Below, one piece after another: positions 4,250 through 58,712 of a stretch of 64,000 bases of DNA (position 1 is its first letter; each line of letters starts with the position of its first letter). The notes beneath the pieces are model-generated. The model had not been told where the DNA came from and made no database searches. It worked only from the letters and a program-made list of their open reading frames with translations. This stretch comes from Eledone cirrhosa (lineage: Eukaryota): the NCBI GenBank assembly GCA_964016885.1, contig OZ024741.1, positions 85,684,001 to 85,748,000 on the forward strand, written 5' to 3'. The position numbers and the translations under genes are program-made.

Positions 4250-4781
4250 GTCCGACCCCTCCACCTCCCACATCTTCCCAGCCCCACCACTCCCCTCCTT
4301 CAAACGCGCACGCAATCTCCGCACCCTCCTCGTCCACAGCTCCCTACCCTCCAACCTCCCCCCCGGTTCCCTTCCCTGTTCCAGGCCCCGCTGCAACACC
4401 TGTCCCCACATCACCAACACCACCACCTTCCAGGGTCCCAACGGCCACTCTCTCTCTGTCCGGCATGCCTTCCGCTGCCCCTCCTCCAACCTAGTCTACG
4501 GACTGCAGTCTACGGAGTGCAGCGCGACCTATGTCGGACAGACTGGACGTCGCCTGGCGGACAGGTTTACTGAAGACCTCCGAGATATTCGTCTCGGTGG
4601 TAGTTCCCCCATCGCCCGCCACTTTGGTGCCCCTGGACATTCCGCACACCACCTCACATTCTGTGGCCTACTCCAATGCCACGGAACACCCGCCACTCTC
4701 CTCAGGGTCGAACAATGAACCATCTTCACCCTACAGACCCACACTCCCCCCGGCCTGAACTCCCCACCCTTATTCCTTTAG
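4250..4781 (+). pseudogene. PLE GIY-YIG endonuclease, frameshifted, with premature stop
   Basis: CSRPRCNTC, SSNLVYG, TYVGQTGRRLADRF, PPGLN; compare the open copy at 55013-55560. Confidence 0.85.
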
Positions 4782-6325: not shown

Positions 6326-6395
6326 TTTCACCTGAAGAAGGGCTTATGCCCGAAACGTCGTTCCCCACCACCACCCCACACTCAAGAGCGTGAAA
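6326..6395 (+). ncRNA. Hammerhead ribozyme-like core in PLE 3' end
   Basis: tttcac-CTGAAGA-a-gggc ttat gccc-GAAAC...gtgaaa; stem III and NUH site atypical. Confidence 0.6.
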
Positions 6396-12740: not shown

Positions 12741-13100
12741 GAGGGCGGCCAACCGGACTGGAAACTGCTAAATGTTTGGCCGCCCTCTCGTCTCTCGGCC
12801 TTTTCAGCCCCTTGGATTATGTCTATTATATTCCTTTATTAAATTTCGAATACCTGAAGATGTCACCGGATTCATACTGAACCCGGTCATTGAAATGTTC
12901 ATAGTATAATAAACTTTTAAGGAATTACACCAGTCCAGCCTCCTGTTATTTTATAATAATTAACTCCTTACTCGCACCACCAACAACACAAACGAAGACG
13001 GGTGAGTTGCATTACGTCGAGTGCTCTCCCTAATATTACATCAAGGTTGACTATACGGAATGACCAGTTCTATCCAGTGGTGAACCAACAAACCTAAATG
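12741..13100 (+). mobile_element. Non-coding PLE-type terminal repeat
   Basis: Highly similar to 41998-42356; contains HHR; ends in (TA)n. Confidence 0.7.
12850..12907 (+). ncRNA. Minimal type I hammerhead ribozyme
   Basis: atac-CTGAAGA-tgtcaccggattcatactgaacccggtcatt-GAAA-tgttca-TA-gtat. Confidence 0.7.
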
Positions 13101-13146
13101 AATATATATATATATATATATATCCTGTTACTTTTCTGACACACCT

Positions 13147-13226
<80 letters not shown>

Positions 13227-13228
<2 letters not shown>

Positions 13229-13859
13229 AGGTGTGTCAGAAAAGTAACAGGACATAGTGTGCTGTGTGAGCTATGAGTGGGGTACGGATTAGCGGATTGC
13301 TTCACCACGTGACGCAATATCCAGAGAGTATATAACTGCGATCTCAGCTCTCTGCAGTTATTGTATGTTTTGTGAACAGCTCCTCAATTTTAGGCGCTCG
13401 AGCGATTGGCACAGAACAACAGACCAGCCTGAAGTTTCTGATCTGCCTGGAAAAAACTCCGTCAAAAGCACTCGGAGATGAGACGATGTCACACTCACGG
13501 GTTTTCGAGTGGTACAAAAGGTTCAAAGTGGGACGGGAGGACGTGGAAGATGACGCCAGGAACGGAAGACCTTCAAAGAGCATGAGTGAGGCCAACGTTG
13601 AGCGCGTGAAGCAAGTGGTGCGTGGAGATCTTCGGCTGACTGTTCGACTAATCGCAAGTGAGCAGAGCATGAACCGCGACAGCGTTTGGAAGACTATCAC
13701 CGAAGATATGGGCATGCGGTAGATCTGCGTGAAGATAGCACCGAAGCTGATGGGCGATGACCATAAGGAGCGGCGTATACATGTGTCAGTAATTTAGATT
13801 TGAAATGTTTTTTTTTGTTTTGTTTTTTTGCGCCCCAGTCCTGCTTCTTTTCTGACACA

Positions 13860-23102: not shown

Positions 23103-23194
<92 letters not shown>

Positions 23195-23205
23195 TAACAG
23201 ATTAA

Positions 23206-23256
23206 AGTTTAAGCAAAGAATCGCTGCTTTCACCCTTAACGGGATCTTCTGAAACT
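23206..23256 (-). ncRNA. Hammerhead-like motif, core CAGAAGA, in an about 100-bp element with inverted arms (23187-23287)
   Basis: Minus strand: agttt-CAGAAGA-tccc gttaa gggt-GAAA-gca...tgc-TT-aaact. Confidence 0.55.
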
Positions 23257-23384
23257 CTTTGCTTAAACTTTAATCTGTTATTTTAATAAATATTTGCTCT
23301 ACGGTTCTTATATATTTGATATAAATTTATCCTTATCGAGCCCTCTTTGGATTTTAGTCTTCAAATTTATTATTATTACTATAT

Positions 23385-25972: not shown

Positions 25973-26608
25973 GGCATAGGTTAAGAATAACGTCCTCGAA
26001 ATTGAAACTAGGTTTTCTGACAAGTGAATGTGTTTTTTTTTTTTTTACAATGAAATTTACGATACACTCTTTGTTTATTTACAACAGGTCTCTATAGTGA
26101 TATGGTGTTAATTAGTATTGCGTGTGTGATTATTTTCTCTTATATATATATATGTGTGGGTGTGTATATGTGTGTATATATATGTGTCTGTATGTATATA
26201 TATATATGTGTGTTTGTATATATGTGTTTGTGTCATCATCATCGTTTAGATGTTTTTGTAATATCTTGCCAAAGTTGGCACCAACTATAAACAAATTAAG
26301 GCCGGGTCATAAGAAGGACAGAGAATGATAAGGGATTTGGGTAAAAACATCTAAACGATGATGATGACACAAACACACATATATATATACATACAGACAC
26401 ATATATATACACACATATACACACCCACACATATATATATGAGAAAATAATCACACACGCAATACTAATTAACACCATATCACTATAGAGACCTGTTGTA
26501 AATAAACAAAGAGTGTATCGTAAATTTCATTGTAAAAAAAAAAAAAAACACATTCACTTGTCAGAAAACCTAGTTTCAATTTCGAGGACGTTATTCTTAA
26601 CCTATGCC
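25973..26608. repeat. Long inverted duplication (arms 25973-26257 / 26343-26608)
   Basis: Near-perfect reverse complement except for microsatellite length. Confidence 0.9.
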
Positions 26609-26799
26609 AATAAAATATATATATATATATTATATGCAAAAGTTTTATTTAAGATTGTTGGGTTACAACGAGTAAATATTTTATAACTGATATAAAAGCA
26701 CTCAACCCTGGAGTAGGTTTACGATATTAAACAATTACAATTACAATTGCATTATTACAAGGTATGTCACTAATTATTTATAAAACAGCTTATGTATTG

Positions 26800-26866
26800 T
26801 ATTTTGTCTGAGGAAGGCATACCATATTTTTTAATATGATATCCCAGAAATATATATAACGAAATA
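26800..26866 (+). ncRNA. Minimal type I hammerhead
   Basis: tattttgt-CTGAGGA-aggcatac catatt tttt aatatg atatccca-GAAA-tatata-TA-acgaaata. Confidence 0.65.
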
Positions 26867-26931
26867 AATATGGTTTTATAAATATAGTTTCCATTTGTTT
26901 AATATCGTATATATATATTATATATATATAG

Positions 26932-27122
26932 GAACAAGTAAGACCCCGACGGCTGAGCTCAAGCCGTTTCGACGGCTAATTCTGTGCGTCCAGAATTAGC
27001 CGTCGAAACGGCTTGAGCTCAGCCGTCGGGTCTTACTTGTTCAAATTACCCACTCTACTACCCTAAGTATTGAGTACTTTGGTACGTTATGATCCACCTG
27101 GTTCCTTACCACATTTCCTTCG

Positions 27123-27124
<2 letters not shown>
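26932..27124 (+). mobile_element. Fold-back palindrome (26932-27042) containing the HHR 3' half, plus tail
   Basis: gccgtc-GAAA-cggc ttgagctca gccg-TC-gggtc; family copy at 58507. Confidence 0.75.
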
Positions 27125-31130: not shown

Positions 31131-31670
31131 GACGTAAAATAAGAAAATGTTTTTTTAAAAAAATTTTAAAAAAAATTTTTTTTTCTTACTTAAATTTTCA
31201 CTCCAACTAATTAGTTTCTGCAATGGGATAAAGACAGTTACGTAATCCAACACGTGATTGATTCTTTAGAATCGGCCATTTGACTTGAAGCAGTGAGAAT
31301 TTCGGTACATAGAATCCAGTCCTCGCAAGCTGTTCGATCTACCGAATTATTACTATTTTTATATGAGCCGCCAGTGTCCGCGCATTGCCTGGAGACTTAA
31401 CTGAGAATAGACTTCCTGATGACGCAATGAATTCTCGACAGTTGGATTACGTAACTGTCTTTATCCCATTGCAGAAACTAATTAGTTGGAGTGAAAATTT
31501 AAGTAAGAAAAAAAATTTTTTTAAAATTTTTTTAAAAAAACATTTCTTATTTTACGTCTTTATATTATTGTTCTGCATTCTCCTGCATTGAACCACCTAG
31601 GTACTATGACATAACCTGTGTATTGCTGGCATGGCGTGCATCTGTGCGCTTATGTTAGTTGATATATTAA
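31131..31670 (+). mobile_element. Non-coding element with about 120-bp inverted arms and a partly deleted HHR
   Basis: Arms 31131-31251 / 31441-31558; CTGATGA at 31416 between gagaat and attctc. Confidence 0.65.
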
Positions 31671-31675
31671 ATTAT

Positions 31676-34031
<2,356 letters not shown>

Positions 34032-34231
34032 NNNNNNNNNNNNNNNNNNNNNNNNNNNNNNNNNNNNNNNNNNNNNNNNNNNNNNNNNNNNNNNNNNNNN
34101 NNNNNNNNNNNNNNNNNNNNNNNNNNNNNNNNNNNNNNNNNNNNNNNNNNNNNNNNNNNNNNNNNNNNNNNNNNNNNNNNNNNNNNNNNNNNNNNNNNNN
34201 NNNNNNNNNNNNNNNNNNNNNNNNNNNNNNN
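34032..34231. other. Assembly gap (200 N)
   Basis: N run. Confidence 1.
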
Positions 34232-34645
34232 TGTAGTCTTTGTGTAGTTCCTTATAGATTAATTTTTTATACTCACTCGTGTCCATCTTGTACAGCTTTT
34301 TGGTTTTGTCGGAGGTGACGAAGAGGTGCGGGTCATTCTTGATCTTAGTTATTAGTGTATCAAGGGACGTTAAGAATGGATTGCTGCATTGGTGTTTCTT
34401 TCTGAACTTAACGTTTTTGATCATTTTCAGTAGGTCCTCTTCAAAGGAGTCCAGTAAGGTGCTGTGCGGTGGGTTTCGGTATGTTTTGAAGCCATACCTC
34501 TCTTTGGGTTCAGGAAGGTTACGGGTGTTCTTACCCAGGTGGTAGGCCTTCCATCTGACTCTCCGTATAAACGAATTAGTAGCGTCTATAAGCAGTTTAA
34601 GGTAGGTTTTTCTGCTGGGTAAGTGGATACACTTAAAAGAGACAT
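34232..34645 (-). pseudogene. PLE (Naiad-like) ORF N-terminal region running into the gap
   Basis: SLKCIHLPSRKTYLKLLIDATNSFIRRVRWKA...YGFKT...FEEDLLKMIKNVKFRK...VTSDKTKKLYKM; HHR-like motif upstream. Confidence 0.7.
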
Positions 34646-34932
34646 GGGTAACGGCTGGTTCTCCAACATAATGGCAAATAAGGTGAGATGCTCTACAAAA
34701 GGAGCACGGTAATACAGTATTTACGTATCGAGAAAGAGAAAAGAAGGGGAGGATAGGTGATACATATAGTTATTTGCCAAGTAGCGTATGCCAAAGGTGC
34801 TCGATACTAGTGCCGGCAGTATTAAATATTCGAAGTGTTAATATTTAGTGGGCTAGAGAGTTAGCAGAGCGTAAGCACGTGGGAAAGTAAAAAATCGGAG
34901 AATAGACTGTTAAAACATGTTTATTTAAAACA

Positions 34933-34973
34933 GCACCTACGTACGTTTCGCCCAGTTGGGCTTCTCAAGGGCA
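34933..34973 (-). ncRNA. Hammerhead-like motif upstream of the PLE ORF, variant core TTGAGAA
   Basis: Minus strand: gccc-TTGAGAA-gccc aact gggc-GAAA-cgtacg-TA-ggtgc. Confidence 0.55.
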
Positions 34974-35328
34974 TAAATAATCACAAGTGTTCCTTATATT
35001 GCTCGGAAAGAGTTTTTGGGGGTTAAATCCACATCAAGGTTCATTGCTCGCAAAAATATCTTGTTTTGATTTTGCAGCAGGTCAAGGGAGGTAACTCTGG
35101 CGGTGTTAGGGCAGTCTTTCCCGGACAATTTTTTTTTTTTTTTTTTGCCGCATCTGTTTGTCTGAGGCTGGGTTGGTATGCAAGGATAGTTTCCTGGGTG
35201 TTATTTTGCAGCGCCTGCCCGCCGGGGTGTTAAGACTTGTTGCAGTAAGATCCGGTGTACGGTTTCACTCGTCATCCATAACCCATCTGAAGAAGGATAT
35301 TTTTAAGCGATGTGTACAATTTATCGCT

Positions 35329-36962
<1,634 letters not shown>

Positions 36963-37126
36963 TTAAGGATACTATTTATGGTTATGTATATAATAAAACC
37001 ATTTATAGTTATATATATTTTAGACCCTAAATAGTGAAAGACCACTGTGGGTCAATATATACATTTTGTTTCTATATGTCTCTTGTGTTGAAAAGGAGGT
37101 CAAGTATGTAAAAAATCACTAAATAA

Positions 37127-37175
37127 TTGCTCCGAAGAATCCAAACCTCGGTTTGGAGGAAACAATTGTAAGCAA
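37127..37175 (+). ncRNA. Minimal type I hammerhead, core CCGAAGA
   Basis: ttgct-CCGAAGA-a-tccaaac ctcg gtttgga-g-GAAA-caattg-TA-agcaa; lies in an about 250-bp island inside TA satellite. Confidence 0.7.
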
Positions 37176-37211
37176 ATAAATGATTTAAACTGAACTTTGA
37201 TTCATGTAATT

Positions 37212-37250
<39 letters not shown>

Positions 37251-37297
37251 GTAATATATTGTATATAAAGATATGTATATACATGTCTATATATATA

Positions 37298-37330
<33 letters not shown>

Positions 37331-37595
37331 ATATATATATATGTATATGTATATTTATATGTATATATGTATTATATATATATATATGTATATATATATA
37401 TGTATATATATATATGTATATGTATATTTATATGTATATATATAATATATATATGTATATATATATAAATATATGTATATATTAATATATGTATATATAT
37501 ATATATGTATATATAAATATATGTATATATATATGTATATATGTATATATATATGTGTGTATATATATATTATATATATATGTATATATATCTAT

Positions 37596-37927
37596 CTAAG
37601 GCGGGTAAAATTCCCGAGATCCTTGGACGAGTTCTCTCCAGTGTCTGACCTTAGGGCATCAACATACGTTAACCTTGGTCTTCCGCTTCTAGTGTGTCCA
37701 TGTAGGGGCTCCCAAAGGAGTACTGAGTGCAATGTCAACTCTGGATGTCGGTGAGCATGTCCAGCTAACCTCAGTCTCCTCTGTGTCACTTTTGAGCTGA
37801 CTTTTGGGATGCTCCCATACAGCTCTGAGTTTTTCATCCTAAGTGTATACTGATTAATGTTCAGAGCCATCCTCAGCATTCTCGTGTAGCACGCATCTAC
37901 CATCTGAGTGAGTTTCTTGGTCAGTGT
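37596..37927 (-). mobile_element. RTE-like LINE 3' fragment (same family as 9228-9812)
   Basis: [15 protein letters not shown]...RRLRLAGH...GRPRLTY. Confidence 0.85.
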
Positions 37928-41258
<3,331 letters not shown>

Positions 41259-41947: not shown

Positions 41948-42356
41948 AAGGTTTATTATACGATGATCATTTCAATGACCGGGTTCAGTATGAATCCGAG
42001 GGCGTTCGACTGAGGTAGAAGCTGCTAAATAGTCGGTCGTCTTCTTGTCTCTGATTTTCAGCCCCATGGATTTAATCTGTTATATTCCTTTGTTATATTT
42101 TGAATACCTGATGATATCACCGGATTCATACTGAACACGGTCATTGAAATGATCATAGTATAATAAACCTTTAAAGGATTTACACCAGTCCAGCCACCTG
42201 TTATTTTATAATTATTAACTCCGTACTCGCACCACCAACTACACAAACGAAGACGGGTAAGTTGCATTATGTTGAGTGCACTCCATAATATTACATCAAG
42301 ATTGACCATACGGAATGACCAGTTCTATCCAGTGGTGAACCAACAAACCTAAATAT
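41948..42356 (+). mobile_element. PLE-type terminal repeat with inverted partial copy at its 5' end
   Basis: 41948-41998 is the reverse complement of 42121-42171; body matches 12741-13100. Confidence 0.75.
42104..42161 (+). ncRNA. Minimal type I hammerhead with palindromic loop III
   Basis: atac-CTGATGA-tatcaccggattcatactgaacacggtcatt-GAAA-tgatca-TA-gtat. Confidence 0.7.
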
Positions 42357-55012: not shown

Positions 55013-55560
55013 CCCCTCCACCTCCCACATCTTCCCAAGCCCCACCCCTCCCCCCCTTCAAACGCGCACGCAATCTCCGCACCCTCCTCGTCCACAGCTC
55101 CCTACCCCCCCCCCCCAACCTACGCTCTCCCCCCCCCAGGTTCCTTTCCCTGTTCTAGGCCCCGCTGCAACACCTGTCCCCACATCACCAACACCACCAC
55201 CTTCCAGGGTCCCAACGGCCACTCTCTCTCTGTCCGGCATGCCTTCCGCTGCACCTCCTCCAACCTAGTCTACGGACTTCGCTGCACGGAGTGCAGCGCG
55301 ACTTACGTCGGACAGACGGGACGTCGCCTGGCGGACAGATTCACTGAGCACCTCCGGGATATTCGTCTCGGTGGTAGTTCCCCCATCGCCCGCCACTTTG
55401 GTGCCCCTGGACATTCCGCACGCCATCTCACAGTCTGTGGCCTACTCCAATGCCACGGAACACCCGCCAATCTCCTCAGAGTTGAACAAAGAACCATCTT
55501 CATCTTACAGACCCACACTCCCCCCGGCCTGAACTCCCACCCTTATTCCTTTAGCCTTCG
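55013..55560 (+). pseudogene. PLE GIY-YIG endonuclease domain (5'-truncated)
   Basis: CSRPRCNTC...NLVYGLRCTECSATYVGQTGRRLADRFTEH...EQRTIFILQTHTPPGLN. Confidence 0.85.
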
Positions 55561-56951: not shown

Positions 56952-57021
56952 TTTCACCTGAAGAAGGGCTTATGCCCGAAACGTCGTTCCCCACCACCAC
57001 CCCACTCTCAAGAGCGTGAAA
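56952..57021 (+). ncRNA. Hammerhead-like core in PLE 3' end
   Basis: Core identical to 6326: CTGAAGAAGGGCTTATGCCCGAAAC. Confidence 0.6.
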
Positions 57022-58506: not shown

Positions 58507-58712
58507 ATAGGAAAAAGTATGACCCCGACGGCAGAGCTCAAGCCGTTTCGACGGCTATTTCTGGGCTAAATTTAGTCCAGAAATAGCCGTCGAAACGGCT
58601 TGAGCTCTGCCGTCGGGGTCATACTTTTTCCTATTTCCAACTCTACTACCCTAAGTATTGAGTACTCTGGTGCGTTATGGTCCATCTGGTTCCTTACCAC
58701 AATCCCTTTGTT
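58507..58712 (+). mobile_element. 128-bp fold-back palindrome (58507-58634) with HHR 3' half, plus tail
   Basis: gccgtc-GAAA-cggc ttgagctct gccg-TC-ggggtc; family copy at 26932. Confidence 0.75.

What the first reader, a model, noticed from the sequence alone, without database searches (positions are those of the whole stretch)
26932..27042. Near-perfect palindrome folded back inside HHR stem II (paired with 58507-58634)
Both loci are 110-128-bp palindromes centred on the presumed stem II hairpin. Each strand has GAAA-stem III-GUC-stem I' but no CUGANGA. The two copies differ from each other (ggctgagctc vs ggcagagctc; caagtaagac vs aaagtatgac), yet each is internally symmetric. Inference: the fold-back arose independently at the same spot, with nascent cDNA snapping back at the ribozyme's own hairpin to self-prime second-strand synthesis. 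Arm-to-arm conversion is the alternative.
Basis: partly seen in the sequence, partly recalled or inferred. Interest (0 to 1): 0.75.

Follow-up and report, generated by a model that had tools for sequence, protein, structure and literature searches.

The report
Twin-primed stubs of a Penelope retrotransposon
These two DNA palindromes belong to about 30,000 genomic copies, mostly short head-to-head stubs, of a Penelope-like jumping gene that inserts in TA repeats; each stub was likely made when both cut DNA strands copied the element's RNA up to its likely capped start, not by folding back on the ribozyme hairpin, which would show which RNA these poorly understood elements copy.

Summary
The palindromes are real. 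Both are the shortest size class of a (TA)n-targeting Penelope-like element (PLE) with Hydra-clade motifs (31,479 exact tail matches). Every copy reads (TA)n, inverted arm starting 79 nt before the element end, variable junction, direct arm, 78-nt tail, (TA)n; long copies show the same ends with kb arms around an RT/GIY-YIG gene. The parent has a complete hammerhead, mostly with a U3-A8 core (2,883 matches against 8 CTGANGA). The quoted differences are subfamily markers; conversion is minor. Arms stop at an initiator-like T(C/T)AGT, often with one untemplated C (19 of 23 vs 9 of 87), the known mark of a copied RNA cap. Best reading: two cDNAs primed on opposite target strands run off the capped 5' end and are end-joined. 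The architecture is published; the cap evidence is inferred, no RNA seen. This scan reached the same reading before on other DNA, in this genome and others.

The parts
26908..26929 (.). (TA)n target, left flank of copy A; its last ATA is shared with the start of the inverted arm
   Evidence: sequence; same flank type in 59 of 66 unbiased copies with a recognisable inverted arm
26928..26984 (-). Copy A inverted arm: element positions -79 to -135, inferred cDNA primed at the inner start site
   Evidence: same start base in kb-scale copies
26985..26987 (.). Copy A junction: 2-3 untemplated bases (T)GC
   Evidence: junction parse
26988..27046 (+). Copy A direct arm, positions -138 to -79: 3' edge of loop II, stem II 3' strand, GAAA (27005), stem III with palindromic loop, cleavage C17 (27027), stem I 3' strand; 5' half of the ribozyme absent
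27047..27124 (+). Copy A one-sided 78-nt PLE 'tail' between the two inferred RT start sites
   Evidence: 31,479 exact 26-mer matches; continues into 5' UTR and ORF in L086
27125..27171 (.). (TA)n target, right flank of copy A
   Evidence: sequence
58507..58572 (-). Copy B inverted arm, positions -79 to -144 (subfamily B), one change at -137; preceded by (TA)n
58569..58572 (.). Copy B junction: 4-nt self-complementary overlap (AATT) shared by both arms
   Evidence: same junction in L098, L099, L102
58569..58634 (+). Copy B direct arm, positions -144 to -79, including the initiator-like TTAGT (A at 58574 = -139), GAAA (58592), C17 (58614)
58635..58712 (+). Copy B one-sided tail, followed by (TA)n

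Best explanation
The two palindromes are minimal head-to-head insertions of a TA-targeting Penelope-like retroelement with Hydra-clade motifs, likely made by two cDNAs that were primed on opposite strands of one cut, ran off the likely capped 5' end of the element's RNA and were joined end to end. Steps. (1) Shown: the parent carries an RT + C-terminal GIY-YIG gene; the palindrome sequence is its pseudo-LTR, just upstream of the start codon. (2) Shown: one arm always starts at -79, the other at -1, both against (TA)n; inferred: these are two RT start sites primed by the two nicked target strands, as shown in vitro for another PLE. (3) Shown: most arms stop at -130 to -145, peaking around an initiator-like T(C/T)AGT 29 nt downstream of a TATA-like word, often with one untemplated C; inferred: this is the capped transcription start, which lies inside loop II of the ribozyme, so RNA from the 5' pLTR lacks the ribozyme's 5' half and cannot self-cleave. 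(4) Shown: junctions are blunt, share 1-6 nt, or hold untemplated bases; inferred: end joining or an RT jump links the two cDNA 3' ends. (5) Shown: both arms come from the same subfamily; inferred: one RNA copied twice or sister RNAs of one locus. The copies are predicted to be inert.
For: Parent: L063 has (TA)n, a 2.3-kb inverted arm starting at the same base, the RT/EN gene, intact hammerhead, tail, (TA)n; L086 shows tail, then ATG 93 nt later; 10 homologues of 495-721 aa, one with RVT_1 and GIY-YIG hits; DKT, RWR, CxCX5C, CxxC, CxH, no CxxC between VIY and YIG. Inverted arm at -79 in 66 of 99 unbiased tail-bearing copies. Two separate cDNAs: inverted arm longer 18, tail arm longer 19, equal 12 of 49; inverted arm longer in L315, L317, L319, L328 of 20 long copies and 1.2 kb against 143 nt in L198. 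Hard stop: 25 of 93 tail arms end between -80 and -129, 59 of 68 between -130 and -145, 2 of 9 between -146 and -329. Cap mark: first untemplated base after -139 is C in 19 of 23 arms against 9 of 87 at other ends, p = 4e-11; C:T 19:4; on both arm types (11 of 12, 8 of 11); on both arms of one copy in 5 of 156; 2,761 exact subfamily-B matches ending in C against 2,318 in G or T, T being 13 of the 100 listed. Same source: 1 of 137 copies has 2 or more diagnostic mismatches between arms, 65% expected if shuffled. Literature: two RT start sites bounding the tail, both strands cut and extended, uncleaved RNA used (PMC11167929); extra G marks capped full-length L1 copies (PMC11702581); PLE promoter lies in the pLTR (PMC2377424; PMC3846280).
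Against: No RNA evidence for a start at -139; initiator and TATA labels are recalled consensus words. Neither window copy shows the C itself. Ends spread over -132 to -145, and subfamily A2 mostly ends at -142 followed by A (14 of 26 read AAAA after -139), which the cap model does not explain without RT stutter or a second start at -143. Only C or T could be scored at -139 because A and G are templated in some parents; in the query-neutral set alone the count is 9 of 12. Genome-wide G after -139 is nearly as common as C and both can be the partner arm's first base. 13 core changes are shared by both arms against 2.5 expected, so some copying of one arm from the other, or source-locus variants, occurs. 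Tail arms are longer in 10 of 20 long copies, compatible with snap-back in those. One RNA versus two was not resolved.
Confidence: 0.72

Rival explanations
1. Twin priming is right, but arms stop at -130 to -145 because RT stalls on RNA structure or meets a processed, uncapped end there, not a transcription start.
For: Ends are spread over about 12 nt; A-runs follow -142 in 18 of 18 unambiguous cases; the spot lies beside stem II of a predicted fold; no RNA start was seen.
Against: The untemplated C is specific to -139 (19 of 23 vs 9 of 87); the stop lies past the stem II 3' strand, in the loop; once past -145 arms rarely stop (2 of 9 over 183 nt); the site is a conserved T(C/T)AGT in 93 intact copies' commonest words.
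Confidence: 0.12
2. One cDNA primed at the tail folds back near its own 3' end (at the RNA's 5' end, by chance microhomology) and primes the second arm, which is then resolved at -79 (self-priming as proposed in PMC3846280).
For: Arms share subfamily and minor variants; excess of shared private changes, 13 vs 2.5; 28 of 77 junctions have microhomology; tail arm longer in 19 of 49 short and 10 of 20 long copies.
Against: Inverted arm carries sequence the tail arm lacks in 18 of 49 short copies and 5 long ones; young copies are as varied as old, so later erosion is not the cause; zero- and 1-nt spacers leave no loop; both strands are extended in vitro (PMC11167929).
Confidence: 0.09
3. One reading: the cDNA snaps back on the hammerhead's stem II.
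For: Junctions lie within loop II; the parent has a foldable stem II.
Against: 0 of 273 inverted arms continue into sense loop II as this predicts; only 9 of 68 tail arms pass -145 whereas the stem II 5' strand lies at -167 to -175.
Confidence: 0.02
4. All copies descend from a palindromic master (DNA MITE or hairpin SINE) whose centre later eroded, with arm-to-arm conversion keeping symmetry.
For: Very high copy number and fixed ends; a few junctions recur 2-4 times.
Against: Ends are not terminal inverted repeats (one-sided tail); continuous size series up to full RT/EN copies with the same ends; 16 distinct junctions in 18 unmutated copies; arm-arm difference 4.6% against arm-consensus 2.6%, ratio 1.74 where 2 means independent decay.
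Confidence: 0.04

Closest known systems
Hydra clade of C-terminal EN+ Penelope-like elements (Craig et al. 2021, PMC8557442; passages, section 11, rows of supplement S1)
   Same: Single RT + C-terminal GIY-YIG ORF with RWR/RWK, DKT, CxCX5C linker, CxxC and CxH, no CCHH; (TA)n targets; hammerhead in the pLTR; molluscs are among listed hosts.
   Different: Unit is about 3.6 kb with a 1.3-kb 3' region (Hydra 'generally <3 kb'); core mostly U3-A8 rather than canonical; no tree with reference Hydra proteins was built.
EN+ PLE insertions with an inverted 5'-truncated copy and a one-sided tail (PMC8557442 Fig. 2 legend; Adineta Pen2a, PMC3846280; D. virilis, PMC2377424; passages)
   Same: Head-to-head inverted copy, tail on one end only, palindromes at the inverted junction.
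   Different: Tail is 78 nt, not 30-40; the dominant product is a 190-210-bp stub; PMC3846280 reads such palindromes as self-priming on an antisense template, while the cap mark here points to two cDNAs from sense RNA.
Poseidon PAc in vitro (Frangieh et al. 2024, PMC11167929; parts 1-2 of 4 read)
   Same: Two RT start sites bound the tail; both target strands are cut and extended; AT-rich target; uncleaved RNA is the main template; predicted dimer.
   Different: Other clade; in the parts read it does not derive head-to-head palindromes or run-off at the cap; here the start sites lie before the start codon and share TAT with the target.
L1 twin priming and cap-derived extra G (PMC11702581, passages)
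   Same: Second target strand primes a second cDNA; junction by end joining; extra G at full-length 5' ends.
   Different: L1's two cDNAs cover adjacent parts of the RNA; here they cover the same stretch, giving a palindrome.
U3-A8 hammerheads of Schistosoma Cercyon PLEs (Cervera and de la Pena 2014, PMC4209133; part 1 of 4 and passages)
   Same: Same core covariation in a PLE pLTR; dual ribozymes on opposite strands 100-700 bp apart were noted.
   Different: Here stem III is a full 5-6 bp helix and loop II is 37-39 nt, so it is not a minimal hammerhead; activity untested.

Membership tests
EN+ Penelope-like element | Single ORF with RT and GIY-YIG endonuclease | tested here: met
   ORF pieces in L063 and L086 align with 700-aa homologues; homologue P0010 hits RVT_1 (1.2e-5) and GIY-YIG (2.9e-4), both under Pfam cut-offs; own pieces hit weakly or not at all. 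The copies seen are frameshifted.
EN+ Penelope-like element | Partial-tandem pseudo-LTR | tested here: met
   In L086 and L331 the tail runs on into the ORF start of a second unit.
EN+ Penelope-like element | Inverted 5'-truncated copy and one-sided tail | tested here: met
   66 of 99 unbiased copies; long copies.
Hydra clade | RWK, DKT, CxCX5C, CxxC, CxH motifs; CCHH absent | tested here: met
   RLRWRT, SDKTG, CNCPNRSSC, CNLC, CKH; one Cys only between VIY and YIG, against the list in PMC8557442 section 11.
Hydra clade | Insertion into (TA)n | tested here: met
   59 of 66.
Hydra clade | Canonical hammerhead | tested here: inconclusive
   Fold and core present, but canonical C3-G8 in 8 exact matches against 2,883 U3-A8; one subfamily has C3-A8.
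Hydra clade | Placement in the Hydra RT clade | not tested
   No reference Hydra proteins were on hand for a tree.
Type I hammerhead ribozyme (parent) | Three helices around C/U-UGAN-G/A-A, GAAA, NUH | tested here: met
   Minimum-energy fold gives the three-way junction, z only -1.5; 85 of 93 intact copies U3-A8 with N7 free (T, G, C, A), set enriched by my searches.
Type I hammerhead ribozyme (parent) | Self-cleavage | not testable with these tools
   Only a weak hint: arms ending at the cut site 35:62 against 17:81 at a control site, hand count, p = 0.004.
Type I hammerhead ribozyme (window copies) | 5' core strand present | tested here: not met
   Both copies stop at or before -144; the core lies at -182 to -176.
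MITE | Terminal inverted repeats, uniform master, DNA transposase parent | tested here: not met
   One-sided tail, varied junctions, retroelement parent. Target-site duplication cannot be read inside (TA)n.
Non-LTR retrozyme | Tandem monomers each with a whole hammerhead | tested here: not met
   Copies are single head-to-head stubs without a whole ribozyme.

The most novel reading that the evidence does not exclude
The stubs are a fossil 5'-end map of the element's RNA: a Penelope RT primes from both nicked strands on capped sense RNA, makes two 'strong-stop' cDNAs and joins them, so the clade's inverted pLTR comes from twin priming rather than antisense self-priming. The promoter starts inside the ribozyme, so only the read-through 3' copy can fold and cut, and the uncuttable 5' end becomes the main template, which is why stubs outnumber ribozyme-bearing copies about ten to one.
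Probability: 0.55. Interest if true: 0.7.

Novelty: new member of a known kind. Interest (0 to 1): 0.5.

Why it matters
How PLEs build their inverted ends, which RNA strand they copy and what their hammerhead does are called open in PMC8557442, PMC3846280 and PMC11167929 (passages read). Tens of thousands of stubs with base-resolved junctions give a direct prediction (capped start at -139, two cDNAs, cap-dependent extra base) that CAGE and the existing in vitro assay can test. The element and its architecture are otherwise of a known kind, and annotation tools could mistake such stubs for MITEs.

Tried and rejected
Rfam scan of the window: 268 matches at E up to 1; the 150 shown were low-scoring miRNA-type or small-RNA models, none a hammerhead. 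The repeat finder was swamped by (TA)n. Search for the canonical CTGANGA parent: 8 matches only; the 5 viewed come from two subfamily backgrounds. Pfam on the parent's own ORF pieces: nothing at cut-off; PDB: nothing below E 0.69; the protein atlas gave no result. A genome-wide listing of whole palindromes was not obtained; arm concordance rests on loci held. First concordance script misaligned two sites in subfamily A2 and numbered sites one base off; redone. Ends at the predicted ribozyme cut: only a 2.7-fold excess by hand count, about 46 such arms in one pattern against 2,761 ending in C at -139, so cut RNA is at most a minor template. Dimeric-ribozyme pairing of two different RNAs as templates was considered; arms from different subfamilies were almost absent (1 of 137), so it has no support. 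Host species was not established; the repeats look cephalopod-like by recall only.

Full report
Observation. Both palindromes are as described: copy A has perfect 40-bp arms inside 26932-27042, copy B perfect 58-bp arms at 58507-58634, with folding z-scores of -19 and -26. They are 86% identical and share a tail, and both sit between (TA)n runs. GAAA, stem III, GUC and stem I' are present; CTGANGA is not. Below, positions count back from the element's last base (-1 = 27124 in A, 58712 in B).

Family. A 26-base word of the tail has 31,479 exact matches in the window's genome, none for the reversed control. For an unbiased sample I took 99 tail-bearing copies from the first places listed on contig C1 (one duplicate locus dropped). 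In 66 of 99 an inverted arm begins at -79 within 330 nt of the tail, in 59 of those 66 right after an AT-rich run; the 33 misses include 8 long copies and several diverged arms visible by eye.

Parent. Long copies continue upstream. L063 reads (TA)n, a 2.3-kb inverted arm starting at the same base as in the stubs, a direct copy with RT and C-terminal GIY-YIG coding sequence, a 1.3-kb 3' region, the ribozyme, the tail and (TA)n; arms are 96% identical. In L086 the tail runs on to a start codon 93 nt later, so the palindrome sequence is the pseudo-LTR ahead of the ORF. Ten homologues of 495-721 aa were found among 560 candidates; one hits RVT_1 and GIY-YIG below Pfam cut-offs. The pieces carry RWR, DKT, CxCX5C, CxxC and CxH and lack CCHH, the Hydra-clade features listed in PMC8557442 section 11. 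No tree was built.

Ribozyme. Intact copies fold into a type I hammerhead (z only -1.5). The 5' core is mostly TTGANAA: 2,883 exact matches in context against 8 for CTGANGA. Position 7 varies freely while the rest is fixed (85 of 93 intact copies, a set enriched by my searches), which fits the U3-A8 covariant reported in Schistosoma PLEs (PMC4209133). Subfamily A2 has C3-A8 (4 of 12 rows in the unbiased loci), predicted weak or dead from known core pairing (own knowledge). The core lies at -182 to -176, the stem II 5' strand at -175 to -167, loop II at about -166 to -130. The stubs lack all of this up to about -140.

Independent origin. Among 77 query-neutral short copies with both arms parseable there are 64 distinct junctions: 28 with 1-6 nt of microhomology, 9 blunt, 40 with inserted bases by a strict parse that counts later mutations as inserts. 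The 18 copies without any change in 30 core sites have 16 distinct junctions and about the same junction length as 59 older ones (17.8 vs 19.9 nt), so the variety dates from insertion. Arms share their subfamily: 1 of 137 parseable copies (of 156) has two or more diagnostic mismatches, against 65% if arms were shuffled. Conversion is minor: 220 one-arm changes and 13 shared ones (2.5 expected) in 4,648 site pairs; arm-arm difference 4.6% against arm-consensus 2.6%. The excess of shared changes fits source-locus variants or occasional copying, and I cannot tell which.

Not a stem II snap-back. That mechanism predicts an inverted arm that runs on into sense loop II. None of 273 inverted arms in the loci held does, and only 9 of 68 tail arms pass -145. 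Any snap-back of the tail-primed cDNA predicts that the inverted arm never exceeds the tail arm. In 49 short copies without overlap the inverted arm is longer in 18, the tail arm in 19, equal in 12. In 20 long copies chosen as opposed ribozyme pairs, the inverted arm is longer in 4, the tail arm in 10, about equal in 2, and 4 were unresolved; L198 has 1.2 kb against 143 nt. The tail itself needs a cDNA primed at -1, so these copies need two cDNAs. PMC11167929 shows for a Poseidon PLE that the tail lies between two RT start sites, that both target strands are cut and extended, and that uncleaved RNA is the main template.

Why the same spot. Tail arms end at 0.5% per base between -80 and -129 (25 of 93), 5.4% between -130 and -145 (59 of 68) and 0.1% beyond (2 of 9). 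Position -139 is the A of T(C/T)AGT, 29 nt after TATTTAAA or a variant; reading these as initiator and TATA is recalled consensus, in line with promoters inside the pLTR in PMC2377424 and PMC3846280. Where a junction has two or more inserted bases, the first one after an arm ending at -139 is C in 19 of 23 against 9 of 87 at other ends (pattern-selected C set excluded; 9 of 12 in the neutral set alone). It occurs on both arm types and on both arms of 5 of 156 copies. Genome-wide, subfamily B has 2,761 matches ending in C and 2,318 in G or T, with T in 13 of 100 listed. An extra G in sense is the known mark of a copied cap in L1 (PMC11702581). Against this: G is also common and both C and G can be the partner's first base; subfamily A2 mostly ends at -142 followed by A or A-runs; neither window copy shows the C (A has a (T)GC insert, B a 4-nt overlap); no RNA start has been seen. 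Ends at the predicted cut site (-98) show only a small excess (hand count: 35 ends to 62 point changes, 3 deletions set aside, against 17 to 81, 2 set aside; p = 0.004).

Mechanism. The element's capped sense RNA likely starts at -139, inside loop II, so its 5' end carries only the 3' half of the ribozyme. The endonuclease likely nicks both strands of (TA)n; one end primes at -79, the other at -1, each beside a TAT that can pair with the target; both cDNAs run off the cap and their 3' ends are joined. Long copies arise the same way from the 3' pLTR. The ends, lengths, junctions and extra C are shown; priming, start site and joining are inferred.

What is known. The inverted 5'-truncated copy with a one-sided tail, TA targeting and the Hydra clade are in PMC8557442 (passages, section 11, supplement S1 rows). 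I found no paper deriving them from twin run-off at a capped start in searches and the passages read (also bioRxiv 10.64898/2026.07.22.740005, and PMC13282606); the library lacks most subscription journals, and supplements other than file S1 were not seen. Earlier notes of this scan, read after I had stated my reading, reach the same view for families in this and other genomes; they are unchecked and are not counted as support.

Verdict. A real, very abundant feature; a new member of a known kind of element with a known architecture. Its value is the base-level evidence on a mechanism that specialists call open. Interest 0.5.

Noticed in passing
window 23187-23384: Another family with the same look: (TA)n, 33-bp inverted arm, 36-nt spacer, direct arm, longer tail ending in TATA; its ends recur as flanks in L003, L012, L025, L032, L056, L139.
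   Followed up: no
window 26560-26907: A different repeat with a CTGAGGA...GAAA motif at 26808 ends in the TA run that copy A entered; the same end flanks L054, L099 and L108, so these families nest in each other's TA runs.
   Followed up: partly
window 6332-6361 and 56958-56987 (repeat pair 4355-4654 / 55129-55428 nearby): Two copies of a C-rich repeat with a compact canonical CTGAAGA-stem II-GAAA motif; likely another Penelope family.
   Followed up: no
window 12854-12903 and 41960-42160: Hammerhead-like CTGA(A/T)GA...GAAA family; the 42-kb copy has a short inverted segment upstream of the direct copy.
   Followed up: no
window 13123-13252: 26-bp unique arms around a long (TA)n form a perfect 130-bp palindrome; only the right arm continues into a longer sequence.
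   Followed up: no
window 31600-41200: About 10 kb of degenerate (TA)n, GC down to 8%, with strong G skew and large inverted blocks near 39.9 kb.
   Followed up: no
L061 1770-5368: Tandem array of a 470-bp unit, over 99% identical, folded into a palindrome at 4469; retrozyme-like.
   Followed up: no
L143, L146, L194, L262 junctions: Runs of 10-18 untemplated A right after -142, as if RT stuttered on the U-tract at the RNA's 5' end.
   Followed up: partly
L120, L339 and three rows: Tiny palindromes in which both arms stop at the predicted ribozyme cut (-98).
   Followed up: partly
L140, L048, L003: A few insertions carry the tail on both ends or a tail-less palindrome abutting a tailed one.
   Followed up: no
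L062 and L065: Other Penelope-like RT ORFs (496 and 606 aa pieces) lie next to copies of this family.
   Followed up: no
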